A stretch of 64,000 nucleotides of DNA from the IMG/VR virus record IMGVR_UViG_3300034684_000299, positions 96,001 to 160,000 of that record, one strand, 5' to 3'. The notes beneath the pieces are model-generated. The model was given only the letters and a program-made list of their open reading frames with translations. It did not search any database and was not told the origin of the DNA. This DNA comes from a virus. Shown piece by piece: positions 21,301 through 49,947 of the stretch (the first letter of the stretch is position 1; the number at the start of each line of letters is the position of its first letter). The translations under genes were made by a program, and so were the position numbers.

Positions 21301-21591
21301 ATGACATATTTGGGTAATGCTTTCTCCCTTCAAATGTTGGCGGAGATTCCGTCAACTTTGAAAGTGGAAGAGGTTTCTTGGGGAGAAATTCCCGCGGGAG
21401 TTGTTTCAGTTGTCGGACACCAAGACACGGCCCGTGTCTTGGGTGTTCCGTTTAATAGAGTATCTATAACGTTGGAAAAGGGTGACATTTTATATGTTGC
21501 CCAGCTCCAAGGAGGACGTCTCCCAGAGGGGGCTACCACGCTCCCCGAGGGATTTAGTTTTAAATATTTGAAAGTCGAGATTGTTGATTAA
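21301..21591 (+). CDS. acrIII-1: AcrIII-1 family viral ring nuclease (DUF1874, STIV B116-like)
   Basis: YLGNAFSLQML N-terminus, VVGHQDTA (catalytic His motif), NRVSITLEKGD, YVAQLQGGRLPEGATTL; 96 aa. Confidence 0.85.
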   Translation: MTYLGNAFSLQMLAEIPSTLKVEEVSWGEIPAGVVSVVGHQDTARVLGVPFNRVSITLEKGDILYVAQLQGGRLPEGATTLPEGFSFKYLKVEIVD

Positions 21592-21754
21592 TCTCGACTT
21601 TCCTCCAACTAAGCACATTTTCCGTTCAGCTTAGTTGAAGTATGAACGAACGGATAGGTTTGCAGGCGTTGCCCCGCTACGTCTGCAAAACCGAAAACTA
21701 ATGCGGGGCTGCATTTCAAACCTAGCAGAATAAACTGTTGGGTTTGAAATGCAG
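21571..21754 (+). ncRNA. Structured RNA module: hairpin, two tandem H-type pseudoknots and a 19-bp hairpin (tmRNA H5/PK2/PK3-like)
   Basis: Stems read directly from the sequence: 21571-82/21590-601; 21606-14/21629-37 with loop 21621-27 pairing to 21648-54; 21657-69/21679-92 with loop 21671-77 pairing to 21703-09; 21710-28/21735-53. G-U pairs favour the plus strand. Confidence 0.65.
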
Positions 21755-21813
21755 AATTCTCACCTCGCTTCATAGAATCACTCCTCACCTCCTAAACACA
21801 TGTTTATTTATTG

Positions 21814-21860
21814 GGAACGTGCGTACAGGCAGGCGTACGTTCCATCTTTTTTTTATTTTT
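21814..21860 (+). terminator. Hairpin + T-tract between the pseudoknot module and the TLD
   Basis: GGAACGTGCG/CGTACGTTCC stem followed by a long T-run. Confidence 0.6.
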
Positions 21861-21875
21861 TTTATTTTTTATTTT

Positions 21876-21948
21876 GGGGACGAATGGGATTGACAAGGAT
21901 ACTGGTGCACATCCTTGGATGCGGGTTCGATTCCCGCCGTCTCCACCA
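21876..21948 (+). ncRNA. Minimal tmRNA-like RNA: tRNA-like domain only (73 nt)
   Basis: Acceptor GGGGACG/CGTCTCC with G3-U70, A73 and CCA. T arm GCGGG-TTCGATT-CCCGC. Stemless D-loop ending GAC. 6-bp H2a closed by a 10-nt loop. Confidence 0.8.
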
Positions 21949-21986
21949 GTTAGCTTCAAAAATTTAATTAGAAAGGAGGGAAGAAT

Positions 21987-22190
21987 ATGTTAACAGACAA
22001 AGAAATCTTTCAAGAAGTTTTAGATGTTATTGAAGGGAGGAAAAAAATAGAAGAAGTAGATGATATAGTCAGATGGGAATATGAAAGATGGATCAGATAC
22101 ATCAACGGTGGTATTCCCATTGAGACAGTTCTGAGAGAGTTGAAACACAGGTTGGAAACAGGAAACTTCCATCCTGAGTATGAAGAATAA
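21987..22190 (+). CDS. Hypothetical protein
   Basis: AGGAGG SD, 67 aa. Confidence 0.7.
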   Translation: MLTDKEIFQEVLDVIEGRKKIEEVDDIVRWEYERWIRYINGGIPIETVLRELKHRLETGNFHPEYEE

Positions 22191-22208
22191 TTTTTTTGCA
22201 AAAAAAGA

Positions 22209-22237
22209 TTGACAAAAAGAGAAAAAAGTAGTATCAT
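22209..22237 (+). promoter_or_regulatory. sigma70 promoter of the Y RNA-tRNA-rsr operon
   Basis: TTGACA-17 nt-TATCAT; the first Y-like RNA starts 9 nt downstream. Confidence 0.8.
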
Positions 22238-22245
22238 AAATATAT

Positions 22246-22304
22246 GGGGTGGTGTGTGAAACGGTTACTTCGGTTGAGAATAATACCGTTTCCAGTTGTT
22301 CCCC
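22246..22304 (+). ncRNA. Short Y-RNA-like RNA (Ro-binding stem only)
   Basis: GGGG/CCCC closing stem and GAAACGGT/ACCGTTTC stem. Shares the TGGTGT, TACTTCG and TGTTCC motifs with the next two RNAs. Confidence 0.6.
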
Positions 22305-22322
22305 TCATTTTATAGAAAAAAG

Positions 22323-22461
22323 TACTACGTTGGTGTAGTGAAGAGTTACTTCGCCTATTAAGCGGGAGGTCGCAGGTTCAAATCCTGCCTGTATGCTTCG
22401 GCATACAGTAGCTCAGCGGTAGAGCGCCATAAATTACTCTTCACGCCTGTTCCACGTAGTA
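22323..22461 (+). ncRNA. yrlA: YrlA-like Y RNA with permuted tRNA-like domain
   Basis: Outer stems TACTACG-TGG/CCA-CGTAGTA and GTGAAGAGT/ACTCTTCAC enclose a T arm (GCAGG TTCAAAT CCTGC), an acceptor-like stem capped by UUCG, and then a D arm (GCTC..GAGC). Lies upstream of Ro60. Confidence 0.85.
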
Positions 22462-22467
22462 TTTCAT

Positions 22468-22612
22468 AGCTGTGTTGGTGTAATGAAGAGATACTTCGCT
22501 TGTTAAGCCGGTAATGCTGGTTCAACTCCAGCCTGAAGTATTCCATTGGAATACTCAGTCGTCTAACGGGTAGGACGCCGTAAATTTCTCTTCATGCTTG
22601 TTCCACACAGCT
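22468..22612 (+). ncRNA. yrlA: Second YrlA-like Y RNA
   Basis: AGCTGTG-TGG/CCA-CACAGCT and ATGAAGAGA/TCTCTTCAT (compensatory changes relative to the first copy). T arm GCTGG TTCAACT CCAGC, closed acceptor-like stem, D arm. Confidence 0.85.
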
Positions 22613-22633
22613 TTTCTTTTTTTATCATTTTTT

Positions 22634-22708
22634 TCTGGGTTAGCTCAAAGGAAGAGCAAGTGGCTGTTAACCACTTTGTTGGGGGTTCGAATCCCTCACC
22701 CAGAGCCA
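22634..22708 (+). tRNA. tRNA-Asn (GTT) with encoded CCA
   Basis: Full cloverleaf: TCTGGGT/ACCCAGA, GCTC/GAGC, AGTGG-CTGTTAA-CCACT, GGGGG-TTCGAAT-CCCTC, G73, CCA. Confidence 0.95.
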
Positions 22709-22746
22709 TATTACTGGTTCCAAAAAAATAAAAAGGTGGTGGTAAA

Positions 22747-24069
22747 ATGAGTAAAGTAAATGTGAAGAAAAGTTCCCCTTTAAAAACCCATGAAGGAGGG
22801 CCAGCAAGAGAAATAAACGCTTTGTGGAAGTTAAAACGTTCTCTCATGGCCTGTTTGCTCTGGGAAGATACCTTCTACGAAGAAGGTGTTGACATTGCCC
22901 AGAGAATAGAAACATTAGTGAGTGAAGTAAAACCCGAAGAAGCAAAAAATCTAGCAATTGAAGCTAGAGAGAATATGAAGATTAGGCATGCACCTCTTTG
23001 GGTAGTTCGTGCTATGGCACGATTACCTGAACACAAAAGACTAGTGTCTGAGACGCTGGAAAGAGTGATTCAGCGTCCAGATGAATTAACAGAATTTTTA
23101 GCTCTTTACTGGTTAGATGGGAAACAACCTCTATCTAACCAAGTAAAGAAAGGATTGGCGAAGGCGTTTACAAAATTTGACGCCTATCAACTCGCCAAGT
23201 ACAACAGGGATGGGCAAGTGAAACTGAGAGACGTTATGTTTCTCACCCATCCAAAACCGTTAAACTTAGAACAGGAAGAAATATGGAAACAACTCGTGGA
23301 TGGTACTTTACCTTCTCCAGAAACATGGGAGGTAGAATTATCTGCGGGGAAAGATAAAAAAGAAACATGGGAAAGATTACTTTCCCAGAATAAATTAGGA
23401 GCTCTAGCTTTATTAAGGAATTTGAGAAACATGGAAGAAGTCGGAGTGAATAGAAAATTAATTATTGAAGCACTCCGACGTATGAAAACTGAAAAAGTTC
23501 TTCCATTTAGGTTTATTGCTGCTGCGAGATATGCTCCTTCACTAGAACCATACCTTGAGGAAGCAATGTTTAAATGTATTCCTCAAGAGAAAATAATTCA
23601 AGGTAAAACAATTCTATTAATTGATGTCTCTGGTTCGATGGAAAGGGCTCTGTCTGAAAAATCAGATATGACAAGAATGGATGCAGCAGCAGGACTTGCC
23701 ATCTTAGCTAGAGAAATGTGTGAAGAAGTAAATGTATATACGTTTTCAGATAATGAAAAATTAGTACCACCTCGAAGGGGATTTGCTCTTCGAGATGCAA
23801 TAGTTAATAGTCAGTCTCACAATGGCACTTATCTTGGTAGGTCAATAAGTGCTATAAATCAAAAAGAACAATATGATAGAATAATAGTATTTACAGACGA
23901 GCAATCTGCAGATTCAGTACCTGCTCCGGAATCTAGAGGTTACATGATCAATGTAGCCAATTACGAGAATGGAGTAGGCTACGGATCTTGGACACACATT
24001 GATGGTTTTTCAGAAGCTGTCATAGATTATATATTGGAATATGAAAAATTGATTAATAATAATTATTAG
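22747..24069 (+). CDS. rsr: Ro60/Rsr RNA-binding protein (TROVE + vWA)
   Basis: THEGG N-terminus, FDAYQLAKY, LRDVMFLTHPKP, TWEVELS, ALLRNLRN, LPFRF, LIDVSGSM (MIDAS), VFTDEQ. Confidence 0.93.
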   Translation: MSKVNVKKSSPLKTHEGGPAREINALWKLKRSLMACLLWEDTFYEEGVDIAQRIETLVSEVKPEEAKNLAIEARENMKIRHAPLWVVRAMARLPEHKRLVSETLERVIQRPDELTEFLALYWLDGKQPLSNQVKKGLAKAFTKFDAYQLAKYNRDGQVKLRDVMFLTHPKPLNLEQEEIWKQLVDGTLPSPETWEVELSAGKDKKETWERLLSQNKLGALALLRNLRNMEEVGVNRKLIIEALRRMKTEKVLPFRFIAAARYAPSLEPYLEEAMFKCIPQEKIIQGKTILLIDVSGSMERALSEKSDMTRMDAAAGLAILAREMCEEVNVYTFSDNEKLVPPRRGFALRDAIVNSQSHNGTYLGRSISAINQKEQYDRIIVFTDEQSADSVPAPESRGYMINVANYENGVGYGSWTHIDGFSEAVIDYILEYEKLINNNY

Positions 24070-24084
24070 CAATTTTTCAAAAAG

Positions 24085-24110
24085 AAGAGGCTTTTTAAGC
24101 CTCTTTTTTA
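24085..24110 (+). terminator. Intrinsic terminator after rsr
   Basis: AAGAGGC/GCCTCTT stem + T-run. Confidence 0.75.
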
Positions 24111-24132
24111 ATTTTTAATAGGAGGGGTTAGT

Positions 24133-24426
24133 ATGAGAAAAGAAGTCTTTGAAGGTTTAGAGATTTTGACAAAAGAAGCAAATTTTGGAAAATTACAATC
24201 AAAAGAGGTTTATTTTATAGTAAAAAGTGCTTTGGAAGAAGCAATATACCAAAGCACTAAAAAAAAAATACAAGTTGGAGACGATTTGGAAATACCAGAG
24301 GATTGTAGAAGCTATGTGATTAAGGAACAATTTCAAAGAATTCTCAGAAAAAAGTTAGAGAAGAAAGATCCGAGGATGGTATTAGTATCCATAGAAGGAG
24401 GAGATAAATATGGAAGAGGAAAATAA
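24133..24426 (+). CDS. Hypothetical protein
   Basis: SD-led ORF. Confidence 0.7.
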   Translation: MRKEVFEGLEILTKEANFGKLQSKEVYFIVKSALEEAIYQSTKKKIQVGDDLEIPEDCRSYVIKEQFQRILRKKLEKKDPRMVLVSIEGGDKYGRGK

Positions 24427-24550
24427 GGAACTTGAACAAGAAATACAAGAGATTTGGAAAAAGATGGCAAATTTGAGTTTAGAAGTTGCCAGCATAAAAG
24501 CTGATATAAAGTTATTGTTTGAAAAAGTTTTAGAAGACGAGCCTGATTAA
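24410..24550 (+). CDS. Small coiled-coil protein (46 aa)
   Basis: AGGAGGAG SD; heptad-like pattern. Confidence 0.55.
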   Translation: MEEENKELEQEIQEIWKKMANLSLEVASIKADIKLLFEKVLEDEPD

Positions 24551-24875
24551 CCTCCTAATCTTCTGCACCAAAGTAAACAAAATTGTTCACTTTGGTGTAT
24601 AAAAATGAGAAGAAAGGAGGTGACATTATGGCTAAAAGTAGTAAAAACGAAATTAAAGTCGCTTCCCATGATTTTTTGACTCCAATCATGGAAGTGATAG
24701 AAGAATCGTTCGAAAATTCGAAACCGAATTCAAATAAAAAATAATCCCATGACATATCAGGAGGCGTAAATCTCGCCTCCTTTTTTTTTACTTTTCTAAT
24801 AAAAAAAGATTTTTTTTGGTATATATTATTTGTTATCATAAAGAAGAGTTCTTACTCAAACAAGGAGGGGAAAAT

Positions 24876-25124
24876 ATGGTATTAGAAATTTATGCATTAA
24901 TAGCTATTTTAACAGCAACAGTAATGTACACCATGTTGGATGTTGTCCCTAAATTTAGGCACCACAAAACATTTTTTCAAGCCTTAAAAGAAGGTATTGA
25001 AAAAGAAAGACCAGATGTTGGAAAAGTTAAAATCTATTTCATATATTTAGGGACTATAGCAATTTTCAGTTTGGTGTGGTTTGTAACAATCCCAGCTAGT
25101 ATAATCAAAATATTAAAAAACTAA
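24876..25124 (+). CDS. Small two-TM membrane protein
   Basis: SD-led ATG within ORF 24816..25124; two hydrophobic segments. Confidence 0.65.
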   Translation: MVLEIYALIAILTATVMYTMLDVVPKFRHHKTFFQALKEGIEKERPDVGKVKIYFIYLGTIAIFSLVWFVTIPASIIKILKN

Positions 25125-25139
25125 AAAGGAGGATTATTT

Positions 25140-26294
25140 GTGGGAAAAACTCTAAAATATTTTTATGTTCCAGTGATTCAAAATGCGATTCAATTTGCTG
25201 ATGAAACGTTTGATGTCCTTATTACAGGTTTGGACATTATCCCATTTTATAAAGAGCAAAATTATGATCAGGAAACACGATTAAAAATATCGAGAGTTCT
25301 AACAATGTTTAATTTAATAGAGTTAATAAACGACGAAGAACTAAAAGACTCTCTAATTCAAATGAAGGTTGATGAATTCTATCAACTTTTGCTTGACTAT
25401 GTTTTACGAGGTGATGAGAAAATATTTGAAGTTAAGCAATTACGAGAGTTTAAGGAATGGTACGACAAACAAAACATAAAATACCAAATATTTGATGTAG
25501 AAGATGACACATATGATTCAAAAGGAATAGAAATATGGAAATTAGAAGATATGGTAGATATGTATGAAATCTTTACTAAACCCCAAAAGAAAAATCAAAG
25601 CTTTAATGTGAAATTGATTTTGACACCCGATAGAACATATCCATATCTAAAAGAAGGTGCAAAAAGATTTTTGATTATATCAAAAGATTATGGAGGAGTA
25701 TCAATACAATCAAAATGTATTATATATTATTTGCTGGGTGAGAATCAATTGTTGAATGCAACAGTAGAATTAGAAGTGGATTATAAACCGTCGGAAGTTT
25801 ATCTGAAGTTTGATGTAGATGGTAGAGAAGAAAGCATGTTATGGAAGGAATACGATAATAGAGTTATGTATGCAAGAAATAATTACACTATAGATCTGAC
25901 TAATTATTTACCAGAAAAATTTTTAAAAGAAAATTATCAAATTATTGTTGATGAGATGAAGAAATTAAGAGAAAAATATCCATATTTCAACACAATACTA
26001 AATTATGATTACAACCATATTGGTATAGAAAAAGGTGAATTTATAGTTTATGATAAAGTAATTGTAAAAATAACTCAAAAATTAATTAATGAGATAATGA
26101 AAGTAAGAGGTATGTTTACGATTAGAAACAGTGACTTTTATAATGATTTTGTAAAAGCTATTGGGCATGAATTAGTTAGAGGCACAATAGATGACGAGAT
26201 AAGAATAGAAAAATTAATATTGAATCAAGATTTTGTGAATTTTTCAAAAGATTTATATATGATTTTGGTAAAACTATCTGAAAAGGAGGAATAA
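25140..26294 (+). CDS. Acidic hypothetical protein, paralogue family A
   Basis: YVPxIxNA..FDV..IPFYxEQ..MFNL shared with 27109. Confidence 0.8.
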   Translation: MGKTLKYFYVPVIQNAIQFADETFDVLITGLDIIPFYKEQNYDQETRLKISRVLTMFNLIELINDEELKDSLIQMKVDEFYQLLLDYVLRGDEKIFEVKQLREFKEWYDKQNIKYQIFDVEDDTYDSKGIEIWKLEDMVDMYEIFTKPQKKNQSFNVKLILTPDRTYPYLKEGAKRFLIISKDYGGVSIQSKCIIYYLLGENQLLNATVELEVDYKPSEVYLKFDVDGREESMLWKEYDNRVMYARNNYTIDLTNYLPEKFLKENYQIIVDEMKKLREKYPYFNTILNYDYNHIGIEKGEFIVYDKVIVKITQKLINEIMKVRGMFTIRNSDFYNDFVKAIGHELVRGTIDDEIRIEKLILNQDFVNFSKDLYMILVKLSEKEE

Positions 26295-26295
26295 A

Positions 26296-27096
26296 ATGAA
26301 AATTCCTTGGAGTGATATGAATATTCCCAAAAGGGTTATCTTTGTAGATGCAAATGTTATTGATAGGTTTCCAGTATTTTGGAAACTAGTGAAAGATAAA
26401 TTAAAAAAAGAAAAAGTTAGAGGAACAATGGAAAAGATTTTATTGCAGAATATAGCATCGATAGGATTGTTTGAAAAAGAAAAATTATTATTTAAATTCC
26501 AAGACGATGGATATTATGAGCGAATCAAGAATTATCATTTGAATTATAGATATACTATTAATATCCCTAATTTTATGAATAAAGAAGATGCAGATGATAT
26601 AAATTACAAAACCTTGAATGATAAATATTACAAATTGAAAGTAGGCAGTATTTATCGAGTATTACAAGGAAAAACAGCAGAGCAATTGTTGAGTTTTTTC
26701 ATGAGATTAAACAAAAAGACGGAGAATTTGTACACATTATTGAATATGGGAATAGCGGATAAAATTATGAATTCGGAGTTCAACAAATATTTAGATGAAA
26801 ATGATTTGAAAAAATATTTGGAGTTTAGTGATTTTACAGCGTATTTCCCAACAATAGATTTTATAGATTACAATGATTTCGATGAAAATGGGAAAATCAT
26901 CTATTATCCATACGAAGAATTCTATAACCTCATGGTTGAATTAGAGAATAAGTCTTATTCAGCCAATGAGGATTTTAAAGACAGAGTAAAAAGATATAGA
27001 TATATGGAAGAATTAATTTTAGATTTAGAAAAACAAATAAAAGTTATATTGGAAAATGTACCAGATAAATATATCATTGATTTATCAAAAATATAA
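26296..27096 (+). CDS. Hypothetical protein, paralogue family B
   Basis: IPWxDxxIPKR..FPxxWxL..IDLSxx C-terminus. Confidence 0.8.
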   Translation: MKIPWSDMNIPKRVIFVDANVIDRFPVFWKLVKDKLKKEKVRGTMEKILLQNIASIGLFEKEKLLFKFQDDGYYERIKNYHLNYRYTINIPNFMNKEDADDINYKTLNDKYYKLKVGSIYRVLQGKTAEQLLSFFMRLNKKTENLYTLLNMGIADKIMNSEFNKYLDENDLKKYLEFSDFTAYFPTIDFIDYNDFDENGKIIYYPYEEFYNLMVELENKSYSANEDFKDRVKRYRYMEELILDLEKQIKVILENVPDKYIIDLSKI

Positions 27097-27108
27097 GGAG
27101 GGGCTAAC

Positions 27109-28458
27109 ATGGATGAGAAATTATTTGAAGTGAATAATAGTGTAGAAAGAACATTGCGATGGGTGTATGTGCCTATTATAAAAAATGCTTTTGAGTTTGA
27201 TAATGAAAGATTTGACGTTATGCTTGAAAATTATGTGGATTATATTCCTTTTTATGAAGAACAAAAGTTTGATGAAGATAATAGATATAAAGTAGCAAAA
27301 CTCTTAAATATGTTTAATTTAGCTGAATATTTTGGTGTGATTGACGATTATGATATTGAAGATCTGGACAAAGAAGAGTTATACCTTCTTATAAACCAAG
27401 AAGCGAGGAGTAATACAAAAGAATATACTTCCACTAATCTTATTAAAAATAAAATATTCGAGGACTTTGTAGAATGGTATAACAAACAAAACATTGATTT
27501 TATCCAATTAGATATGAAAGATAAGGAATATACAATAACAGGTTGGAATTTTTCAGAATACGTTAATACAGAACAAATATTCAAAGATGAAGATCAATGG
27601 AAATTTGATGTTAAACCCTGGCTAATTTTAAAACCAAATCATGACTATTCTTATTTAAAAGATGATGCTATTGAACACTTTAATTTATATTATGAACTAG
27701 CCAATTATGATATAACGGTTTCTTCCGTTATTCTTAAATATTATTTGTTAGGAGTACATCAAATGTTCAATTCATTAGCTGAAGTTGATGGGAAAGATTT
27801 TAAACCTTCTTGGGATTTTGATATAGAATTCGAAGTGGACGGGGAAAAGCAAAAGCTTCATTGGGAACCATATAGAGACACAAACGCTCCTGACAATTAT
27901 TGTATAAATGTAAAAGGATTGTATTTAGACCTTGTGGCACCATACGACGATTTAGACAATGAATATGGTGAAGTTGATTATGAATATATAAATAACTTAT
28001 ACAACAAAATTATAGAAGACCATATAAGATCTTTGGAAGGAGATTTTGATTTTCATCCATTGGTTCTAGGCAGAAGTGGTGGATATTTCGGATTTCAAAA
28101 AGAAGATTTTAAGATCTTTGATACCATTATTATTAAAGTAAATAACGAATTAATTGAAGAAGTAATCTCAGGTGGAGCTAACTTTTCAATTCAAGATTTT
28201 AGAGGAAGTTTTCTAAAAGAAATAGAAGATATGGTATCTGACATGTTTGCTTCAAACACTGATGTAGAAATGATTGAAATAGAAGATTTTGAATTTGATG
28301 ATGAATTCATTGAATTCAATCAATCTGTATACAAAGCTATAAAAGCATTAAGTTCTGGTCCAGAGTTGAGAAACTGGGAAGAATATGAGTTTTGGTTGGA
28401 GAATGATTATGATAATTCCAAGTTGGAGGAGTTTAGAAAAAAGAAACTTTCAGAATAA
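27109..28458 (+). CDS. Acidic hypothetical protein, paralogue family A
   Basis: Similar to 25140. Confidence 0.8.
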   Translation: MDEKLFEVNNSVERTLRWVYVPIIKNAFEFDNERFDVMLENYVDYIPFYEEQKFDEDNRYKVAKLLNMFNLAEYFGVIDDYDIEDLDKEELYLLINQEARSNTKEYTSTNLIKNKIFEDFVEWYNKQNIDFIQLDMKDKEYTITGWNFSEYVNTEQIFKDEDQWKFDVKPWLILKPNHDYSYLKDDAIEHFNLYYELANYDITVSSVILKYYLLGVHQMFNSLAEVDGKDFKPSWDFDIEFEVDGEKQKLHWEPYRDTNAPDNYCINVKGLYLDLVAPYDDLDNEYGEVDYEYINNLYNKIIEDHIRSLEGDFDFHPLVLGRSGGYFGFQKEDFKIFDTIIIKVNNELIEEVISGGANFSIQDFRGSFLKEIEDMVSDMFASNTDVEMIEIEDFEFDDEFIEFNQSVYKAIKALSSGPELRNWEEYEFWLENDYDNSKLEEFRKKKLSE

Positions 28459-28538
28459 AGAGGCTATATGCCTCTTTTTTTTCTAAAAAGCAAAGTTTTT
28501 TGGTATATATCAATTATATTTGATAAGGAGGTGTTTCT

Positions 28539-29303
28539 ATGCAAATACCATGGCAAGATATCAAAGTTCCAAAAAGATATATTACAGTTAACAAAAAAAT
28601 GACTGAGAAATTTCCTATATTATGGAAGTTATTTGAATATGGAGCTGATGATATTATAGCGGCACAAAAACGATTCAACAAATTATTAATAAAAAATATT
28701 TTTGAAATAGGATTAACTGAAGATATGAAATTAGAATTTAATTTTAGAGTTGGAGAAGATTTTCTACCACAAAAACTTATGTATTTTGTTAAACCAATAT
28801 TGAGAAAAAAACCCCTTAAGGATTTCATTGGTGGAAAATATACTTTAAATACTGTAAAACCAGAAGATGAAGCAAATGTATTTGAATTTTTTCAAAAATT
28901 AAATAGCAAAATTGGTACTAGATATCAACCTTATCAGAATCAAATAAATGAAATAGTTCAAAATTCTGAATTAGCCAAATTTCTAAAACAATTTCCGAAT
29001 ATTATAAGAATGTATAAATTACAACACAGCGAAATCATTAAATATGCTCCTGAGATTGAATTTGTTCAAGATGAGGATTTTTATAGTAATAGTAGAATTT
29101 TGAGATTTTATTTTACAGGTTCCATTAATATCCTTAGTGGCGAAATTAGACATGAGTTGGATGAAAATAAAGACCTTAACGATAGTGAAAGAGAGAAGTA
29201 TAAAGAACAAGTAAGCAATTGGTGTGATGAAATGGAACGAAAAATAACAAAATTGTTGGAAAATATAAAAGAAAGTGATATATTAGATTTATCTGAACTT
29301 TAA
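28539..29303 (+). CDS. Hypothetical protein, paralogue family B
   Basis: MQIPWQDIKVPKRY..APEIEF..LDLSEL. Confidence 0.8.
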   Translation: MQIPWQDIKVPKRYITVNKKMTEKFPILWKLFEYGADDIIAAQKRFNKLLIKNIFEIGLTEDMKLEFNFRVGEDFLPQKLMYFVKPILRKKPLKDFIGGKYTLNTVKPEDEANVFEFFQKLNSKIGTRYQPYQNQINEIVQNSELAKFLKQFPNIIRMYKLQHSEIIKYAPEIEFVQDEDFYSNSRILRFYFTGSINILSGEIRHELDENKDLNDSEREKYKEQVSNWCDEMERKITKLLENIKESDILDLSEL

Positions 29304-29329
29304 AACAACTGATAAAAAGGAGGAATATT

Positions 29330-30094
29330 ATGCGAATACCTTGGAGAGATATCAAAATACCAAAAAGATATATAAGAATAGATTATAAAACTATCAAGAA
29401 ATTTCCTGTATTTTGGAAGTTGTTTGCGGATCAAGCTTATGATATATTTCTTGATAAAAGAATAATAAACAAATTAATGATGAAAAATTTATTGGAAACT
29501 GGTCCAAATGAAAATACAAAGTTAGATTTTGCTTTCAAAATAGATGAAGGTATTACTCCAATAAGACTTGAATTTGAAATGCGTTTACATCCAGAAGATT
29601 TAAATTTTCCTTATGTGGATTCACTTCTAGATATTCAAGGAGTTATTTATGATCCTGACGATGAAATGGAATTGTTTGAATTTTTTAAAAAATTGAACAG
29701 CAAAATTAATTCAATGCATCCTTCTTACATTGATAAGATAAATGATATATTAAAAAATTCAAAGTTGCAACATTTTATCAAACAAGACGAGAAAATAAAT
29801 AAACTTCCTGAATTTCAGGATGAAGATTTAACAAAATTTGCTCCAAAAATAGAATTTATACAGAAAGGGGATTTTGATGAAAACGGAGAAATGACTTTTT
29901 ATGCAACGGATTCAATTAATTTACTTAGTGCCAAAATAAGAGGAAGATTCATAAACAATTCTAGTTTTTCTAAAGAAGAAGAAGAAAAATATACAGATAT
30001 AGTTAAAGAAGGATTCGAAGATATAGAGGAACAAATAAAGGAAATGTTGGAGAAAATAGATGAAAAAGATATGATAGATTTATCTGAACTTTGA
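29330..30094 (+). CDS. Hypothetical protein, paralogue family B
   Basis: MRIPWRDIKIPKRY..APKIEF..IDLSEL. Confidence 0.8.
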   Translation: MRIPWRDIKIPKRYIRIDYKTIKKFPVFWKLFADQAYDIFLDKRIINKLMMKNLLETGPNENTKLDFAFKIDEGITPIRLEFEMRLHPEDLNFPYVDSLLDIQGVIYDPDDEMELFEFFKKLNSKINSMHPSYIDKINDILKNSKLQHFIKQDEKINKLPEFQDEDLTKFAPKIEFIQKGDFDENGEMTFYATDSINLLSAKIRGRFINNSSFSKEEEEKYTDIVKEGFEDIEEQIKEMLEKIDEKDMIDLSEL

Positions 30095-30122
30095 AAAAAA
30101 GTTAATAAAAAGGAGAGATATT

Positions 30123-30893
30123 ATGTCAGTTTTGTGGGGAAATGTAAGAGTACCTAAACGGTATATAAGAATAAATCATCAAACCATCAAAAAGTTTCCT
30201 ATATTTTGGGAATTGTTTCTGAGCTATATAGACGATACATTCCAGAACCAAAACAGACAAAATCAAATATTGCTCAGAAATATGATGGAAATAGGTTTGA
30301 CAAAGGAAACCAATTTAGACGTTATGTTTGAAAAAGATTCAGAAACCTTTTCTTCGAGAGAATTATTTCCAGAGTCAATTAGATATGGAATAGAACCAAT
30401 AAATGCAAACATACCTTTTGAAGATTTGCCCATCCATACTATGAAATATATGATTGACCACAGAAAAGAGCTAGCTATTCTTGATTTCTTAGAAAAATTA
30501 AGTAGAAAAATTGATTCAATAAATGCTATATATCCATCAAAGATACAAGGTGTTATATGGAATTCAAATTTGTATAGTATTTTGTCAAAAGTTCCAGAGG
30601 ACAATTATGAATTGCAAGAAGAAGATATAATGAGATATGCACCTGAAATAGAGTTTATTCAGATTGATGATTTTGATGAAGAAGGAAATTTAATATTTAG
30701 TTTTAGGAATTTTATTGATGAATTTAATTTAAAATTAGACGAGTTTATAGAAAGAAATAATAAATTGACAGAATATGAGAAGAGCAATTATAGAATGCAA
30801 ATAAGAAAGGAATGTCTTAAGATTGAAAAAGAAATAAAACATATATTAGAAAGATTGGATAAAAATGAAATTATAGATTTATCACAATTGTAG
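30123..30893 (+). CDS. Hypothetical protein, paralogue family B
   Basis: WGNVRVPKRY..APEIEF..IDLSQL. Confidence 0.8.
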   Translation: MSVLWGNVRVPKRYIRINHQTIKKFPIFWELFLSYIDDTFQNQNRQNQILLRNMMEIGLTKETNLDVMFEKDSETFSSRELFPESIRYGIEPINANIPFEDLPIHTMKYMIDHRKELAILDFLEKLSRKIDSINAIYPSKIQGVIWNSNLYSILSKVPEDNYELQEEDIMRYAPEIEFIQIDDFDEEGNLIFSFRNFIDEFNLKLDEFIERNNKLTEYEKSNYRMQIRKECLKIEKEIKHILERLDKNEIIDLSQL

Positions 30894-30908
30894 AAAGGAG
30901 GAAGAAAG

Positions 30909-31259
30909 ATGAAAAAGGAAGAATTTAAAAAAATAGTTGAAAAGAAAGCTGGAGATTTGCGATTTGTAAAAGTTGAAATAGAATTAGACAAGCTAAAGGA
31001 AATTGATAATGCAGAGTATCAACGATGGATTCAAAGAATTAGTGAGTTCAAACAGTTGGAAGATTCAGGAGAAGAGTTCAAGAAAAATGGAAAAGTTATG
31101 TATGAGTTTAATCTGAATGCTTCATCTATTGAGAGTTGTTTGACTTATTATCAGCGAATGATTCAAAGTGGTGGCATAAAATTTTGGAATTATTTGGATG
31201 ATGGAGAATTGGATATGTACGCACAAATTCTCAATCAAACAGAAAATTTATATAACTAA
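30909..31259 (+). CDS. Hypothetical protein, paralogue family F
   Basis: FxxxGxxxYxFD/N and C-terminal Wxxxxxxxxxx(W/Y)xxIL pattern. Confidence 0.75.
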   Translation: MKKEEFKKIVEKKAGDLRFVKVEIELDKLKEIDNAEYQRWIQRISEFKQLEDSGEEFKKNGKVMYEFNLNASSIESCLTYYQRMIQSGGIKFWNYLDDGELDMYAQILNQTENLYN

Positions 31260-31271
31260 GGAGGAATTAGT

Positions 31272-32042: not shown

Positions 32043-32061
32043 TAAATAAGGAGGAATTAAA

Positions 32062-32490: not shown

Positions 32491-32503
32491 AGGAGGAATT
32501 AAA

Positions 32504-32950: not shown

Positions 32951-32964
32951 AGGAGGTATAAAAA

Positions 32965-33351: not shown

Positions 33352-33369
33352 AAAAAAGGAGGAATTTAA

Positions 33370-33693: not shown

Positions 33694-33714
33694 ACTTTAA
33701 AAGGAGGAATTAAA

Positions 33715-36409: not shown

Positions 36410-37501
36410 ATGGAAAGAAAATTAGCAAGTATACAAAGGATTACAGAGATACGCCCAATCGAGAATGCTGATAATATCGAAGTTGCAAAAGTTCTTGGTT
36501 GGGAATGTGTTGTTAAAAAATCAGATAATTTTAAAGTTGGAGATCTTGTAGTTTATATAGAAATAGACTCTATCGTTCCAGATAGACCAGAATTTGAGTT
36601 TTTAAAAGAAAGAAAGTTCAAAGTTAAAACAATAAAACTTAGAGGGCAAGTATCTCAAGGACTTATAATGCCTCTTAACATACTTCCAAAAAGGCATTAT
36701 AAAGAAGGAGATAATGTTACTAAAGTACTTGGAGTAAAGAAATATGATCCCCAAGCTGAGTTAGAACAAAAATTACAAGAACAAAGAGCAAACATAAGTA
36801 AAAATAGAGTATATAAATTTTTATCAAGATATTCTTGGTTTCGCAGACTAATTTTTAGAAAAAGAAGAGATAGATTTCCTAAGTTTATCAAGAAAACTGA
36901 TGAACCAAGAATTCAGTTATTCCCTACAATCTGTGAGGATTATAAAGATTTAACGTTCTCGGTTACAGAAAAAATAGATGGAATGAGCGCCACCTACTTT
37001 TTGTTAAAGAATCCTAAAAAACGGTTTGCTAATAAAAACAAATATATCTTTGGAGTTTGTAGTAGAAACTTATATCTATTACAGGAAGGTAATTCTTCAT
37101 ACTGGATTATAGCAAGAAAGTTTAACATCAAACATGTACTTGAAAAATTAATAGGGAACAATGACTATATAGTATTACAAGGAGAAATAATAGGACCTGG
37201 AATTCAAGAAAACAAATATCAGCTTTCAGATTATGATTTTTATGTGTTTAATTATATCTATCCACATACACAATTCAATAATCTAGAAGCAAAAGATGCA
37301 TTAGAACCATATGGCATAAAATTTGTTCCCATATTGGAAGATATGAAATTGAAACCAACAATTCAAGAAATGGTTGAATATTCAAAAGGAAAGTCTAAAT
37401 TATTACCAATCGATAGAGAAGGGATTGTTTGTAGAAATTATGAACACAATATATCCTTTAAGGTAATAAACCCGGATTTTTTGCTCACTAACGATGAATA
37501 A
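36410..37501 (+). CDS. ATP-dependent RNA ligase, DRB0094/Rnl2-like family
   Basis: N-terminal ERKLASIQRI..ADNIE OB-like module; TEKIDG (adenylated Lys), LQGE, FYVF, EGIV, FKVIN. Confidence 0.88.
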   Translation: MERKLASIQRITEIRPIENADNIEVAKVLGWECVVKKSDNFKVGDLVVYIEIDSIVPDRPEFEFLKERKFKVKTIKLRGQVSQGLIMPLNILPKRHYKEGDNVTKVLGVKKYDPQAELEQKLQEQRANISKNRVYKFLSRYSWFRRLIFRKRRDRFPKFIKKTDEPRIQLFPTICEDYKDLTFSVTEKIDGMSATYFLLKNPKKRFANKNKYIFGVCSRNLYLLQEGNSSYWIIARKFNIKHVLEKLIGNNDYIVLQGEIIGPGIQENKYQLSDYDFYVFNYIYPHTQFNNLEAKDALEPYGIKFVPILEDMKLKPTIQEMVEYSKGKSKLLPIDREGIVCRNYEHNISFKVINPDFLLTNDE

Positions 37502-42384: not shown

Positions 42385-42385
42385 A

Positions 42386-47316: not shown

Positions 47317-47336
47317 TAATAATAAGGAGTGAAAAA

Positions 47337-47609
47337 ATGGTAGAGATGAAAAAATATGAAGTAAGAATAGATAGGGAATATCTTGTTGAAATTTATGCTA
47401 AAAATGCAGAAGAAGCTGAAGAGTATGTTCAAACATATTTAGGCAATTTAGTTGATGAATCAACTCCTAAAGATCAAGAAGAGAAAAATTTCAAAATATC
47501 CGATATGGAACTCTTATGGAGCGAAGTTTTAGACTGTCAAGAAGCTGAAATTAAGGAAAAAGCAAGAAAAATGGGTGTATTTGATAGGTTTTTTGGGGCA
47601 AAATATTAA
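47337..47609 (+). CDS. Hypothetical protein, paralogue family J
   Basis: YEVxIxRxY..A.EY..DESTP..LDC. Confidence 0.75.
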   Translation: MVEMKKYEVRIDREYLVEIYAKNAEEAEEYVQTYLGNLVDESTPKDQEEKNFKISDMELLWSEVLDCQEAEIKEKARKMGVFDRFFGAKY

Positions 47610-47643
47610 ACTCAAAAAAACAAATTATTAAGGAGGCAAAAAA

Positions 47644-47862
47644 ATGAAAGAATTTGAAGTGGTACTATCTAGAGATTATGTTGTAAGAATCAAGGCTGAG
47701 AATAAAGAGAAAGCAAAAGAATATGCAGAAATATTTATTGGTGACCCAAAAGACGAATCCACACCAGAAGATAGGGAAGAAAAAAGATTTGAAATTTTAG
47801 AGATTAGTTCAGAATTCAACGAAGCATTAGATTGCGAAGAAGTAGAAGAAATAGAAGAATAA
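47644..47862 (+). CDS. Hypothetical protein, paralogue family J
   Basis: Tandem paralogue of 47337. Confidence 0.75.
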   Translation: MKEFEVVLSRDYVVRIKAENKEKAKEYAEIFIGDPKDESTPEDREEKRFEILEISSEFNEALDCEEVEEIEE

Positions 47863-47878
47863 AAGGAGATGATGGTTA

Positions 47879-48352
47879 GTGGAAATGGTAAGAATTTGGC
47901 AAAAAGATACAAAAGTGTTTTTGGAAAAATCACCCGAGAATTTTAAATCTAGTTTGACTCTTTTAGCACCGGAAGGGCAAAATCCACCAAAGATTTTGTG
48001 GTGGGAAGAGCCAAATTTTAATGGGCATGAGTGGCAAAAAGAGTTTGAATGTAACGTGAAAGATAAGGTTTGGATTGAACATTGGAAAAAAGTAGACAAT
48101 ATAGAGTTTAAAGTAGAATATGCACACAAAGATGTTCTAGAAAGAGGATTTACACCTGAAGAATTGAAGTTTCTGAACGTATACAGAGATAAATTTTTGT
48201 TGTTAGCTATTCCCAAAGACAGCGAAAGTGAAACAATAGAAGATTTGTATATTTGGGATAACAGCACTAAAGAGAAATATTTGTTACCGGATGATTTCAC
48301 GTGCAAATTGGAAGAATTTAAACTAGAATTAGAAAAACTTAAACTAATCTAA
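47879..48352 (+). CDS. Hypothetical protein, paralogue family I
   Basis: Paralogue of 46840. Confidence 0.8.
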   Translation: MEMVRIWQKDTKVFLEKSPENFKSSLTLLAPEGQNPPKILWWEEPNFNGHEWQKEFECNVKDKVWIEHWKKVDNIEFKVEYAHKDVLERGFTPEELKFLNVYRDKFLLLAIPKDSESETIEDLYIWDNSTKEKYLLPDDFTCKLEEFKLELEKLKLI

Positions 48353-48456
48353 AGTCATAAAACTCACCTTCTCCCCACCTAAACAGGTGGGGCTTTTTTC
48401 AAAATTTTATTTTTTTTGGTATATATTAGTTAATATATATTAAAGGAGGGATTTTA

Positions 48457-48783
48457 ATGGGAAATATGATTACTAAGGAAGATTTTTTGGAATTGTTATA
48501 CAGCCCCATAGTAACTAAAGCATTGGAAATTACTGATATGGAAAAGATCTCAAAAGAAGAGTTTGACAGAATAATGGAAAATGCAAATGATGAAGAAGAT
48601 AAACTTTTTATGCAATATAAAGGGTTTATTGCATACACTTTTGATTCATACAATCAAGAAACCAAAATCAGGATATTTTCTAAAGTTGAAAACAATATCC
48701 AACACAAAGGATTCTTTTGTGAAAAATGGAGTGAAGTAACTCCAGAGAAGTTTGAACTATGGGCAAAAATTTTGCAATACTAA
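48457..48783 (+). CDS. Hypothetical protein, paralogue family F
   Basis: GFIAYTFD..KWSEVTPEKFELWAKIL. Confidence 0.75.
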   Translation: MGNMITKEDFLELLYSPIVTKALEITDMEKISKEEFDRIMENANDEEDKLFMQYKGFIAYTFDSYNQETKIRIFSKVENNIQHKGFFCEKWSEVTPEKFELWAKILQY

Positions 48784-48798
48784 AAGGAGGTAATTTGT

Positions 48799-49947
48799 GT
48801 GATTATACAAGGAAAATATAATTTTGCTAAGGTATTTACAGAAAATATAGAAGAACAAGCTATTGAACAAATAAAAGAATTTTTAGATCAAGAATTCTCT
48901 AAAGATCTAAAGATACGAATAATGCCAGATGCACATGCAGGTGCAGGATGTGTAATTGGTACTACTATTTACTATCCTAAGAATGATAAAATAATTCCTA
49001 ATCTGGTTGGAGTTGATATAGGTTGTGGAGTACAAGTGGTGAAACTAGAAGAGAAAGATATAGATTATGCTAAATTAGACGAAGTTATAAGACAAGAAAT
49101 TCCTTCTGGTTTTCATGTACGTAATGTTCCACATAAATACGCTGAAAAAATACGAATAGAAGAGTTAATGATGTGCGTTTATAACATAAACTGGCGAAGA
49201 GCACAATTAAGCATAGGAACATTAGGGGGAGGAAACCACTTTATTGAAGTCGATAGAAATGACGATGGAGAGCTATATTTGGTAGTACATTCCGGGAGCA
49301 GATATTTAGGTAAGGAGATAGCGGATTACTATCAAAAATTGGCTGGTGCTTCCCTTACTGGTTATCCAATAGAACAAAAAAAGAGTATCAAAAAGAAACT
49401 TCAAGAAATGGGAATACCAAAAGACTTAGCATATCTAGAAGGAGAAGATTTAAGAAAGTATTTGTACGATATGGATATAGCACAACATTTTGCTATTTTG
49501 AACAGGATGGCTATTATAGACACTATTGTTGAAAAAATGAGATTCAAAGTTATAGATAGATTTGAGTCTGTACATAATTATATAGATATAGACAATATGA
49601 TACTGAGAAAAGGAGCTGTATCTGCTCAATTTGGACAAAGGTTAATCATTCCAATAAATATGAAAGATGGTAGTTTGATATGTGTAGGAAAAGGTAATCC
49701 AGATTGGAATTATTCGGCTCCTCATGGTGCAGGTAGGATAATGGGCAGACGGCAAGCAAAAGAAACTCTGTCTTTAGATGAATACAAGTATGCAATGGCA
49801 GGTGTTTATTCGACGTCTGTTAATGAAGATACAATAGATGAAGCACCTATGGCATATAAACCAATAGAAGAAATAGAAGCAAACATAAAAGATACAGTAG
49901 AGATCTTGGAAAGGATATATCCAGTTTACAATTTCAAAGCTAATTAG
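48799..49947 (+). CDS. rtcB: RtcB RNA ligase (2',3'-cyclic phosphate/3'-P to 5'-OH)
   Basis: MPDAHAGAGCVIG, VGVDIGCG, GGGNHFIE, HSGSR, HNY, RKGA, PHGAGR, DEAPMAYK. Confidence 0.95.
   Translation: MIIQGKYNFAKVFTENIEEQAIEQIKEFLDQEFSKDLKIRIMPDAHAGAGCVIGTTIYYPKNDKIIPNLVGVDIGCGVQVVKLEEKDIDYAKLDEVIRQEIPSGFHVRNVPHKYAEKIRIEELMMCVYNINWRRAQLSIGTLGGGNHFIEVDRNDDGELYLVVHSGSRYLGKEIADYYQKLAGASLTGYPIEQKKSIKKKLQEMGIPKDLAYLEGEDLRKYLYDMDIAQHFAILNRMAIIDTIVEKMRFKVIDRFESVHNYIDIDNMILRKGAVSAQFGQRLIIPINMKDGSLICVGKGNPDWNYSAPHGAGRIMGRRQAKETLSLDEYKYAMAGVYSTSVNEDTIDEAPMAYKPIEEIEANIKDTVEILERIYPVYNFKAN

What the first reader, a model, noticed from the sequence alone, without database searches (positions are those of the whole stretch)
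21301..49947. Candidate multi-layer RNA protection/repair system
One genome segment carries signal destruction (AcrIII-1), RNA decoys or spares (mini-TLD, Y RNAs, tRNA-Asn), an RNA chaperone (Rsr) and both ligase chemistries: RtcB for cyclic-P/5'-OH ends and a DRB0094/Rnl2-type ATP ligase for 3'-OH/5'-P ends. A metallophosphoesterase at 13710 could heal ends. Bacterial rsr-yrl-rtcB operons respond to tRNA damage (established). A viral version combined with an anti-CRISPR and a tmRNA mimic would be a new counter-defence strategy (inference).
Basis: inference. Interest (0 to 1): 0.75.

Follow-up and report, generated by a model that had tools for sequence, protein, structure and literature searches.

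The report
Phage RNA island plus scattered ligases
A 185-kb environmental phage really carries an anti-CRISPR ring nuclease, a stripped-down tmRNA, three Y RNAs, one tRNA, a Ro60 protein and two RNA ligases, but these are separate modules of an RNA-repair toolkit already described in large phages, not one newly discovered system.

Summary
The coherent unit is small: a 2.8-kb island with raised G+C (window 21301-24069). It holds a DUF1874/AcrIII-1 gene, a 260-nt structured stretch, a 73-nt tmRNA reduced to its tRNA-like domain, a 67-aa ORF, and an operon behind a near-consensus sigma-70 promoter: Y1, Y2, Y3, tRNA-Asn, rsr.

The Rnl5-type ATP RNA ligase lies 12 kb from rsr and RtcB 25 kb. 42 ORFs separate them, including DnaN, ThyX and a DNA methylase. 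Both ligase genes have genome-typical G+C.

Only Rsr with YrlA-like RNA is conserved in relatives. Rsr, RtcB and an ATP ligase co-occur in phage genomes more often than chance, but are rarely adjacent. AcrIII-1 and the tmRNA stub never accompanied Rsr in any other set I examined. I found no end-healing enzyme. The phosphoesterase at 13710 matches a family annotated as DNA-repair exonuclease.

RNA-repair suites with RtcB, ATP ligases, TROVE proteins and tRNAs in large phages were described in 2021. TLD-only phage tmRNA, phage Rsr with YrlA, and a phage Ro60-Y RNA-PNPase complex are also published. This scan has noted similar phage Ro60/Y-RNA/tmRNA/RtcB islands on at least 19 other genomes.

Verdict: a rich new example of a known kind. 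The single-system reading is unsupported.

The parts
21301..21591 (+). DUF1874 / AcrIII-1-type ring nuclease gene (96 aa; G+C 46% against 31% for the genome)
   Evidence: PF08960 at 23.9 bits; PDB 2x4i at E 9e-7; His40, R73 and E76 align to H47, R85 and E88 of SIRV1 gp29; 49.5% identity to the THSA-485A protein, which abolished cA4-based immunity (10.1101/778746).
21592..21852 (+). Strongly structured G+C-rich stretch after the AcrIII-1 stop, ending in a terminator-like hairpin (21814-21843). It is either a + strand RNA or a 54-59 aa ORF on the minus strand.
   Evidence: -93.8 kcal/mol, z = -7.95 on the + strand; z = -4.61 on the minus strand. No Rfam match. Minus-strand ORF 21609-21788 behind AGGAGGTGA. 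Unresolved.
21876..21948 (+). TLD-only mini-tmRNA: 7-bp acceptor stem with G3:U70, encoded CCA, T arm and tmRNA-type D-loop. It has no tag reading frame and no pseudoknots.
   Evidence: RF00023 at 65.4 bits, E 5e-24; the roughly 310-nt middle of the model is replaced by a 10-nt loop. ARAGORN calls no tmRNA in the genome.
21987..22190 (+). 67-aa ORF with a strong ribosome-binding site, function unknown
   Evidence: no Pfam, PHROG or Atlas match.
22209..22237 (+). Sigma-70-type promoter (TTGACA, 17 nt, TATCAT; 11 of 12 matches) in front of the Y RNA-tRNA-rsr operon
   Evidence: It is the best promoter match in 20200-25200.
22244..22305 (+). Y1: short Y-like RNA that shares the 5' and 3' stem motif of Y2 and Y3 but lacks the tRNA-like module
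   Evidence: z = -2.6. The ends are approximate.
22330..22455 (+). Y2: YrlA-like Y RNA (basal stem, T arm, acceptor-like hairpin, D arm)
   Evidence: RF02553, 33.6 bits, model positions 1-114.
22473..22604 (+). Y3: second YrlA-like Y RNA
   Evidence: same architecture as Y2, with 6 compensatory pairs of 27 and none broken.
22634..22708 (+). tRNA-Asn(GUU), the only tRNA of the phage
   Evidence: Asn makes up 7.0% of residues in long ORFs (AAT 2641, AAC 891).
22747..24069 (+). Rsr / Ro60 homologue (TROVE plus vWA with DVSGS MIDAS motif), followed by a terminator-like hairpin at 24081-24109
   Evidence: PDB 9l5y/9kop (Thermus phage phiLo Ro60) at E 3e-28.
36410..37501 (+). Rnl5-family ATP-dependent RNA ligase (N-terminal OB fold plus nucleotidyltransferase; Lys188 in KIDG)
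   Evidence: PF21189 at 112 bits, PF09414 at 76 bits, PDB 5cot (Naegleria RNA ligase) at E 6e-44.
48799..49947 (+). RtcB 3'-phosphate/5'-OH RNA ligase (MPDAH, DIGCG, GNHF, HSGSR and His309 in HGAGR all present)
13710..14468 (+). Calcineurin-like metallophosphoesterase. It probably does not belong to the set.
   Evidence: PF00149; phrog_7339 'DNA repair exonuclease', E 3e-43; no PDB relative. Its neighbours are IS200/IS605 tnpA and tnpB.

Best explanation
These are three separately organised accessory modules in the non-structural arm of a 185-kb phage. They are not one system.

(1) A 2.8-kb island with raised G+C.
- AcrIII-1 cleaves the cyclic tetra-adenylate signal of type III CRISPR. This activity is inferred from conserved catalytic residues and a tested close homologue.
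- The TLD-only tmRNA is probably charged with alanine and binds host SmpB. It has no template, so it most likely competes with host tmRNA and damps trans-translation. This is inferred from published work on similar TLD-only molecules.
- A host-type promoter drives Y1-Y2-Y3-tRNA-Asn-rsr. The Y RNAs dock on the Rsr ring and tether it to host PNPase, redirecting or damping that exonuclease. This is inferred from Deinococcus, Salmonella and Thermus phage phiLo.
- tRNA-Asn supplies a heavily used codon family, or replaces a cleaved host tRNA.

(2) RtcB, elsewhere in the genome, reseals RNAs (typically tRNAs) cut to 2',3'-cyclic-phosphate and 5'-OH ends.

(3) The Rnl5 ligase seals 3'-OH/5'-phosphate nicks in duplex RNA. 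It has no recognisable healing partner, so its substrate is unknown.

Together they form a toolkit of the kind already described for large phages, gathered piecemeal.
For: Identity and intactness of the parts.

Operon anatomy: a promoter matching 11 of 12 positions at 22209, then the Y RNAs, tRNA and rsr, then a hairpin at 24081.

The Y RNA fold is shared by two diverged copies, with 6 compensatory pairs. YrlA-like hits lie directly beside rsr in four metagenomic relatives. Rsr with a Y RNA is therefore the conserved core.

Separate histories: the island is 40% G+C (acrIII-1 46%, rsr 38%), whereas RtcB is 33%, Rnl5 29.5% and the window 30.5%.

Separation: 42 ORFs lie between the parts, including DnaN, ThyX and an N6/N4 methylase. 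Terminator-like hairpins stand before Rnl5 and before the RtcB unit.

Co-occurrence:
- RtcB is in 5 of 15 Rsr-positive phage lineages, and adjacent only in HGTV-1.
- It is adjacent to rsr in 2 viral contigs.
- 3 of the 5 also have a PF09414 ligase.
- AcrIII-1 and the TLD show no linkage to Rsr elsewhere.

Literature: PMC7824862 (phage RNA-repair suites), PMC4201824 (phage Rsr-YrlA), PMC12135203 (phage Ro60-Yrl-PNPase), PMC4131195 and PMC11915505 (TLD-only tmRNA of phage DS6A; a similar TLD molecule inhibits tmRNA), 10.1101/778746 (AcrIII-1).
Against: There are no expression data.

Several 'terminators' are followed directly by a ribosome-binding site. They may be read through.

The genome-level enrichment of Rsr with RtcB and an ATP ligase does suggest functional cooperation. 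AcrIII-1 sitting 0.3-1.5 kb from the TLD and the rsr operon may not be chance, given the published idea that phage Ro60 sequesters PNPase, which type III CRISPR needs.

The host is unknown, so I cannot say whether it has type III CRISPR.

An AcrIII-1 homologue did not act as an anti-CRISPR in a native infection (10.1101/2023.01.10.523387).
Confidence: 0.6

Rival explanations
1. One reading: a coordinated multi-layer counter-defence. AcrIII-1 removes the alarm signal. The TLD, Y RNAs and tRNA-Asn act as decoys or spares. Rsr chaperones damaged RNA. RtcB and the ATP ligase reseal both kinds of broken ends. All are selected together.
For: All parts are present and intact in one genome arm. HEPN RNases activated by cA4 leave the ends that RtcB joins (established chemistry). 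Rsr, RtcB and an ATP ligase co-occur in CcrColossus, HGTV-1 and Desulfovibrio phage 7757. rsr and rtcB are adjacent in some viral contigs.
Against: AcrIII-1 and the TLD are linked to the rest nowhere else. The ligases are 12 and 25 kb away and differ from the island in base composition. No healing enzyme was found for the ATP ligase. The phosphoesterase matches a DNA-repair exonuclease family. Published data make a TLD-only RNA an inhibitor, not a spare (PMC4131195).
Confidence: 0.13
2. The island is an anti-type-III-CRISPR unit. AcrIII-1 destroys cA4, while Rsr and the Y RNAs trap host PNPase, which matures type III crRNAs. The neighbourhood would then be functional, with RtcB and Rnl5 unrelated.
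For: AcrIII-1 lies 1.15 kb upstream of the rsr operon inside one block of raised G+C. Thermus phage Ro60 with its Y RNAs binds and attenuates host PNPase, and the authors suggest an effect on type III CRISPR (PMC12135203). The window's Rsr is homologous to that protein.
Against: This is a single instance. None of the 15 Rsr-positive phage lineages is among the 17 DUF1874 records, and none of 11 AcrIII-1 viral loci has Rsr within 10 kb. The PNPase-CRISPR link is itself a hypothesis. The host and its CRISPR type are unknown.
Confidence: 0.12
3. Ordinary housekeeping with no link to defence. tRNA-Asn matches the phage's Asn-rich, AT-rich codon use. Rsr and the Y RNAs stabilise or clear phage RNAs. 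RtcB and Rnl5 maintain tRNAs or process phage transcripts. The TLD stops tagging of phage proteins. DUF1874 has another role, such as inhibiting a host enzyme.
For: Asn is 7% of residues, with 2641 AAT codons. Phage Rsr genes lie within about 4 kb of tRNA genes in all 15 lineages examined. SIRV2 gp37 (DUF1874) acted through a host methyltransferase rather than as an anti-CRISPR in native infection (10.1101/2023.01.10.523387).
Against: The catalytic residues of the ring nuclease are kept, and its closest tested relative blocks cA4 immunity (10.1101/778746). RtcB and RNA ligases in phages are generally read as counter-defence (PMC7824862).
Confidence: 0.15

Closest known systems
RNA-repair and translation-protection toolkits of large and jumbo phages (Iyer, Anantharaman, Krishnan, Burroughs, Aravind 2021, PMC7824862)
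   Same: The genome combines RtcB, an ATP-dependent RNA ligase, a TROVE/Ro protein with tRNA-like partner RNAs, and a phage tRNA. The parts are dispersed rather than in one operon.
   Different: This phage has only one tRNA and no recognisable kinase, phosphatase, 2H, RlaP or CCA enzyme. Its ATP ligase is Rnl5 type rather than Rnl1 or Rnl2. An AcrIII-1 gene and a TLD-only tmRNA sit beside rsr.
Thermus phage phiLo Ro60 with Yrl1 and Yrl2 (PMC12135203; PDB 9kop, 9l5y)
   Same: A phage-encoded Ro60 with phage-encoded Y RNAs. It is the best solved relative of the window's Rsr (E 3e-28).
   Different: Only distantly related: the tblastn match to the phiLo record is 28% identical. This phage has three Y RNAs and a tRNA in one promoter-led operon. 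Binding to PNPase is untested here.
Salmonella rsr-yrlBA-rtcBA RNA repair operon (PMC7790460, PMC4201824)
   Same: It contains Rsr, a YrlA-type and a shorter Y RNA, and RtcB.
   Different: Here RtcB is 24.7 kb away. There is no RtcA, and no RtcR/sigma-54 control was seen. The Y RNAs score below the Rfam cut-off.
TLD-only tmRNA of mycobacteriophage DS6A (PMC4131195, PMC11915505)
   Same: A phage RNA that keeps little more than the tmRNA tRNA-like domain.
   Different: The host group is unrelated and unknown. This one lies next to Y RNAs and rsr. My pattern scan suggests such RNAs are common in viral contigs.
AcrIII-1 of Thermoanaerobacterium phage THSA-485A and SIRV1 gp29 (10.1101/778746)
   Same: A DUF1874 protein with the catalytic His and loop residues; 49.5% identical to the THSA-485A protein.
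   Different: It is shorter (96 aa). Activity, timing and host are untested.

Membership tests
AcrIII-1 / DUF1874 ring nuclease | Sequence membership in PF08960 | tested here: met
   My hmmscan gives 23.9 bits, under the 26-bit cut-off. However, the collection's precomputed Pfam tag for this protein and for the homologues listed among 2791 hits is PF08960. PDB 2x4i matches at E 9e-7.
AcrIII-1 / DUF1874 ring nuclease | Catalytic His47 and conserved loop residues (SIRV1 gp29 numbering) | tested here: met
   His40 in GHQDT aligns to H47. R73 and E76 in RLPEG align to R85 and E88.
AcrIII-1 / DUF1874 ring nuclease | Cleaves cA4 and blocks type III CRISPR during infection | not testable with these tools
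   Inferred only. The 49.5%-identical THSA-485A protein did so in a plasmid assay (10.1101/778746). A native-system study questions the anti-CRISPR role for SIRV2 gp37 (10.1101/2023.01.10.523387).
tmRNA (RF00023) | tRNA-like domain: acceptor stem with G3:U70, CCA end, T arm, SmpB-type D-loop | tested here: met
   65.4 bits against a 47-bit cut-off. The stem and wobble pair can be read from the sequence.
tmRNA (RF00023) | mRNA-like domain with resume codon, tag reading frame and pseudoknots | tested here: not met
   About 310 model positions are replaced by a 10-nt loop. ARAGORN finds no tmRNA or tag peptide. It is therefore a TLD-only derivative, not a working tmRNA.
YrlA Y RNA (RF02553) | Score at or above Rfam's gathering cut-off | tested here: not met
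   Y2 scores 33.6 bits against 69. Y3 is not reported at E below 1. Rsr-adjacent RNAs in relatives score 35-44 bits, also below the cut-off.
YrlA Y RNA (RF02553) | Architecture (basal stem plus T arm, acceptor-like hairpin, D arm), next to rsr on the same strand | tested here: met
   Full-length model match over positions 1-114. Y2 and Y3 fold alike, with 6 compensatory pairs of 27 and none broken. They lie 140-420 nt upstream of rsr.
Rsr / Ro60 | TROVE domain plus vWA domain with MIDAS motif | tested here: met
   TROVE 80.8 bits (cut-off 23), VWA_2 29 bits, DVSGS at residue 293. phiLo Ro60 matches at E 3e-28.
RtcB | PF01139 plus metal ligands and the guanylylated histidine | tested here: met
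   217.5 bits. MPDAH at 42, DIGCG at 73, GNHF at 145, HSGSR at 164, HGAGR at 309.
Rnl5 (DraRnl / NgrRnl) RNA ligase | N-terminal OB fold followed by a nucleotidyltransferase domain with motif I lysine | tested here: met
   PF21189 at 112 bits and PF09414 at 76 bits. Both domains align to NgrRnl 5cot at E 6e-44. KIDG at residue 188.
Bacterial rsr-yrlBA-rtcBA operon | rsr, Y RNAs, rtcB and rtcA contiguous in one operon | tested here: not met
   RtcB is 24.7 kb from rsr with 42 ORFs between them. There is no RtcA in the genome.
T4-type heal-and-seal pathway (Pnkp plus ATP ligase) | Polynucleotide kinase/phosphatase or other end-healing partner | tested here: not met
   The only AAA_33 hit is a thymidylate kinase. 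No 2H esterase, RlaP, CCA enzyme or RtcA was found. The genome is 91% complete, so absence is not proven.

The most novel reading that the evidence does not exclude
The AcrIII-1 to rsr island is a dedicated anti-type-III-CRISPR and anti-RNase unit. The ring nuclease removes cA4. Rsr and the Y RNAs sequester PNPase, which is needed for crRNA maturation. The TLD-only RNA handles or blocks the ribosome-rescue response to Csm6-cut mRNAs. The distant RtcB reseals what was cut. This would be a functionally coupled programme rather than a chance neighbourhood.
Probability: 0.12. Interest if true: 0.7.

Novelty: new member of a known kind. Interest (0 to 1): 0.35.

Why it matters
If the parts did cooperate, this phage would be a compact test bed for how viruses survive RNase-based immunity, from alarm signal to repair.

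As it stands, the value is more modest. It is a clean example of a promoter-led Y RNA-tRNA-rsr operon in an uncultured low-G+C phage. It is the only case I found of AcrIII-1 beside Ro60, which bears on the published PNPase/type III idea. It also led to the observation that TLD-only tmRNA stubs look common in viral contigs, which deserves its own study.

Tried and rejected
- Host identification from the tmRNA stub. The 3' half is identical in more than 120 genomes of many phyla, and no 5' half matched closely. This gave no host.
- Close relatives of the phage. A protein next to rsr gave none in IMG/VR. DNA search of the phage collection found only short matches within the tRNA/Y RNA stretch. 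A viral contig shares just 188 bp of the RtcB 3' end.
- Structure prediction of the two largest paralogue families downstream of rsr. Mean pLDDT was 46.6 and 43.2, too poor for a fold search, so none was run.
- The 67-aa ORF: no Pfam, PHROG or Atlas lead.
- The phosphoesterase as an RNA end healer. I rejected this as unsupported. Its best family is a DNA-repair exonuclease, it has no PDB relative, and it sits beside an IS200/IS605 element.
- The AAA_33 hit as a polynucleotide kinase. Rejected: it is a thymidylate kinase.
- RtcB partners near RtcB, such as archease: none found.

Full report
**Setting.** The window is bases 96001-160000 of a single 185,437-bp IMG/VR virus record. It has 31% G+C and is estimated 91% complete. 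ARAGORN finds one tRNA and no tmRNA in the whole genome. No close DNA relative exists in the phage collection.

**Are the parts real?** Yes, all of them.
- *AcrIII-1.* The 96-aa product of 21301-21591 scores just below Pfam's cut-off for PF08960 (23.9 against 26 bits). Other evidence is stronger. It hits SIRV1 gp29 structures 2x4i and 6scf at E 9e-7. His40 aligns to the catalytic H47, and R73/E76 to R85/E88. It is 49.5% identical to the DUF1874 protein of Thermoanaerobacterium phage THSA-485A, the gene shown to abolish cA4-based type III immunity (10.1101/778746). It belongs to a family of 2791 or more proteins, those listed all tagged PF08960.
- *Mini-tmRNA.* 21876-21948 matches the tmRNA model end to end at 65.4 bits, with about 310 central positions replaced by a 10-nt loop. 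The sequence shows a 7-bp acceptor stem with G3:U70 and an encoded CCA.
- *Y RNAs.* 22330-22455 matches YrlA over the whole model, but at 33.6 bits against a 69-bit cut-off. A second copy at 22473-22604 folds the same way. The two differ by six compensatory pairs out of 27, with none broken. A shorter copy at about 22244-22305 shares the terminal stem motif only.
- *tRNA and Rsr.* tRNA-Asn(GUU) follows at 22634-22708. Then comes Rsr at 22747-24069, with TROVE at 80.8 bits and a vWA domain carrying DVSGS. Its best solved relative is the Ro60 of Thermus phage phiLo.
- *ATP ligase.* 36410-37501 has the N-terminal OB fold plus nucleotidyltransferase layout of Rnl5 (DraRnl/NgrRnl), with the KIDG lysine. 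'DRB0094-type' is right and 'Rnl2-type' is not.
- *RtcB.* 48799-49947 has every catalytic motif.

**Anatomy.** The tight unit runs from 21301 to 24069, which is 2.8 kb. A near-consensus sigma-70 promoter (TTGACA, 17 nt, TATCAT) at 22209-22237 precedes Y1, Y2, Y3, tRNA-Asn and rsr. A hairpin with a T-run follows rsr at 24081-24109. AcrIII-1 lies upstream, between two terminator-like hairpins.

This island is 40% G+C (acrIII-1 46%, rsr 38%), against 26-35% in its flanks. RtcB (33%) and Rnl5 (29.5%) look like the rest of the genome.

rsr and Rnl5 are 12.3 kb apart. rsr and RtcB are 24.7 kb apart. Between them lie 42 ORFs, including DnaN, ThyX, a DNA methylase and an 11-kb block of tandem paralogues with no database match. 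Terminator-like hairpins stand just before Rnl5 and before the RtcB unit, and no strong shared promoter appears.

One caution applies. Several such hairpins are followed directly by a ribosome-binding site. Transcription units are therefore not settled.

**Do the parts travel together?**
- *From the Rsr side.* 92 phage records encode a relative. In the 15 lineages I examined, tRNA genes lay within about 4 kb of rsr in all. A tmRNA lay within about 4 kb in three: Bacillus phage G, crAss-like cr106_1, and Brevundimonas phage Gurke (permuted form). RtcB was present in 5 of the 15, against 703 of 50,697 records overall. That gives a binomial p of about 2e-6 by my own calculation, uncorrected for genome size and relatedness. 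It lay close to rsr only in HGTV-1. Three of those five also have a PF09414 ligase.
- *Viral and metagenomic contigs.* RtcB lies 1.7 kb from rsr in one contig, and RtcB pieces lie near rsr in another. YrlA-like RNAs sit directly beside rsr in four relatives.
- *From the AcrIII-1 side.* The 17 phage records with a homologue come from genera that do not appear among those seen for Rsr-positive phages. In 11 viral loci, no Rsr, RtcB or Rnl5 lies within 10 kb.
- *From the TLD side.* Of 119 loci from the pattern scan (about 60 of them TLD-type), only one has Rsr nearby, and that RNA is tRNA-Ala-like.
- *From the RtcB side.* 0 of 7 viral loci have Rsr nearby.

So Rsr with a Y RNA is the conserved core. 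Rsr, RtcB and an ATP ligase form a loose genome-level association. AcrIII-1 and the TLD beside rsr are peculiar to this phage.

**End healing.** The genome has no RtcA, CCA-adding enzyme, 2H esterase or RlaP. Its only AAA_33-like protein is a thymidylate kinase. It also has no SmpB. The phosphoesterase at 13710 matches phrog_7339, 'DNA repair exonuclease', at E 3e-43. It has no solved relative and sits next to IS200/IS605 tnpA and tnpB. 'Both ligase chemistries' is therefore true of the enzymes, but the ATP branch has no visible healing step.

**How it most likely works.** Shown here: gene identity, intact motifs, RNA folds and operon layout. The rest is inferred.
- AcrIII-1 cleaves cA4.
- The TLD RNA is alanylated and binds host SmpB but cannot template tagging, so it competes with host tmRNA. 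The precedent is the TLD-only RNA of phage DS6A; a similar TLD molecule strongly inhibited tmRNA, perhaps by titrating SmpB (PMC4131195, PMC11915505).
- The Y RNAs tether Rsr to host PNPase, as in Deinococcus, Salmonella and phage phiLo, where the complex attenuates PNPase (PMC4201824, PMC12135203).
- tRNA-Asn serves a codon family that makes up 7% of phage residues, or replaces a cleaved host tRNA.
- RtcB reseals RNAs cut to cyclic-phosphate ends.
- The substrate of Rnl5 is unknown.

**Comparison with what is known.** Iyer et al. 2021 (PMC7824862) describe jumbo-phage RNA-repair systems in detail. [quoted passage not shown] They add that a subset also carry a ROT/TROVE protein with a tRNA-like partner, and they read all of this as counter-defence. 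Phage Rsr-YrlA pairs date from 2014 (PMC4201824).

What is new here is the particular mix, with AcrIII-1 and a TLD stub next to rsr. One published idea makes that neighbourhood interesting: phage Ro60 may blunt type III CRISPR by trapping PNPase (PMC12135203). It remains a single case.

This scan has also reported similar phage Ro60/Y-RNA/tmRNA/RtcB islands on at least 19 other genomes.

**Verdict.** This is a new member of a known kind, of moderate interest.

Noticed in passing
About 60 hits (52 unique sequences, 60-88 nt) have tmRNA-type D-loops and G3:U70. Only 7 have a tRNA within 1 kb. TLD-only tmRNA stubs therefore seem common in phages, far beyond the single DS6A case cited in the papers I read.
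   Followed up: partly
L010, L026, L030, L033, L035, L038, L083 (Caulobacter phage CcrColossus) and others: 24 of the same hits are 58-63-nt (a few up to 75-nt) RNAs with a TTGCA (Ala UGC) anticodon-like loop, an alanine-type acceptor stem and apparently no D arm. ARAGORN of them tRNA-Ala.
   Followed up: no
window 21592-21852: This G+C-rich stretch folds far better than shuffles on the + strand (z = -7.95 against -4.61 on the minus strand). Two hairpin loops are each complementary to 7 nt downstream, so pseudoknots are possible. The tail is CU-rich and contains UCACCUCCU, like the 16S rRNA 3' end. The minus strand instead offers a 54-59 aa ORF behind AGGAGGTGA. It is unresolved which reading is real.
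   Followed up: partly
window 25140-35308: An 11-kb block made of five tandem paralogue families: 25140/27109; 26296/28539/29330/30123; 31272/34075; 32062/32477/34901; 33370/33715. None has a Pfam or PHROG match. AlphaFold models were of low confidence.
   Followed up: partly
window 7006-7234, 35324-35548, 55340-55549: Three HEARO (IscB omega-RNA) copies. The one at 35324 is followed only by short ORFs (133 and 88 aa) rather than a full IscB, and lies directly upstream of the Rnl5 ligase.
   Followed up: no
window 11052-12640: An IS200/IS605 element (Y1 transposase TnpA plus TnpB/Cas12f-like) lies next to the metallophosphoesterase.
   Followed up: no
L137 (first 14 kb of a 223-kb IMG/VR phage, G001): RtcB sits inside an array of about 27 tRNA genes. 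The array also holds a 74-nt TLD-pattern RNA that neither the tRNA nor the tmRNA model recognises, and a partial YrlA-like match. This phage has no Rsr.
   Followed up: partly
L300:4389-4576: An otherwise unrelated 7.9-kb viral contig shares a 188-bp stretch, 94.7% identical, with the 3' end of this phage's rtcB. It may be a recombination scar or a gene fragment.
   Followed up: no
L259-L269: ARAGORN calls tRNA genes (a few of undetermined type) within 10 kb of the AcrIII-1 homologue in 6 of 11 viral contigs, sometimes within 1 kb (L259, L266, L267).
   Followed up: no
window 21240-21300, 24081-24134, 36366-36412: A terminator-like hairpin with a T-run is followed at once by a strong ribosome-binding site and a start codon, with no room for a promoter. 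These hairpins may be read-through or RNA-stabilising elements rather than true terminators.
   Followed up: no
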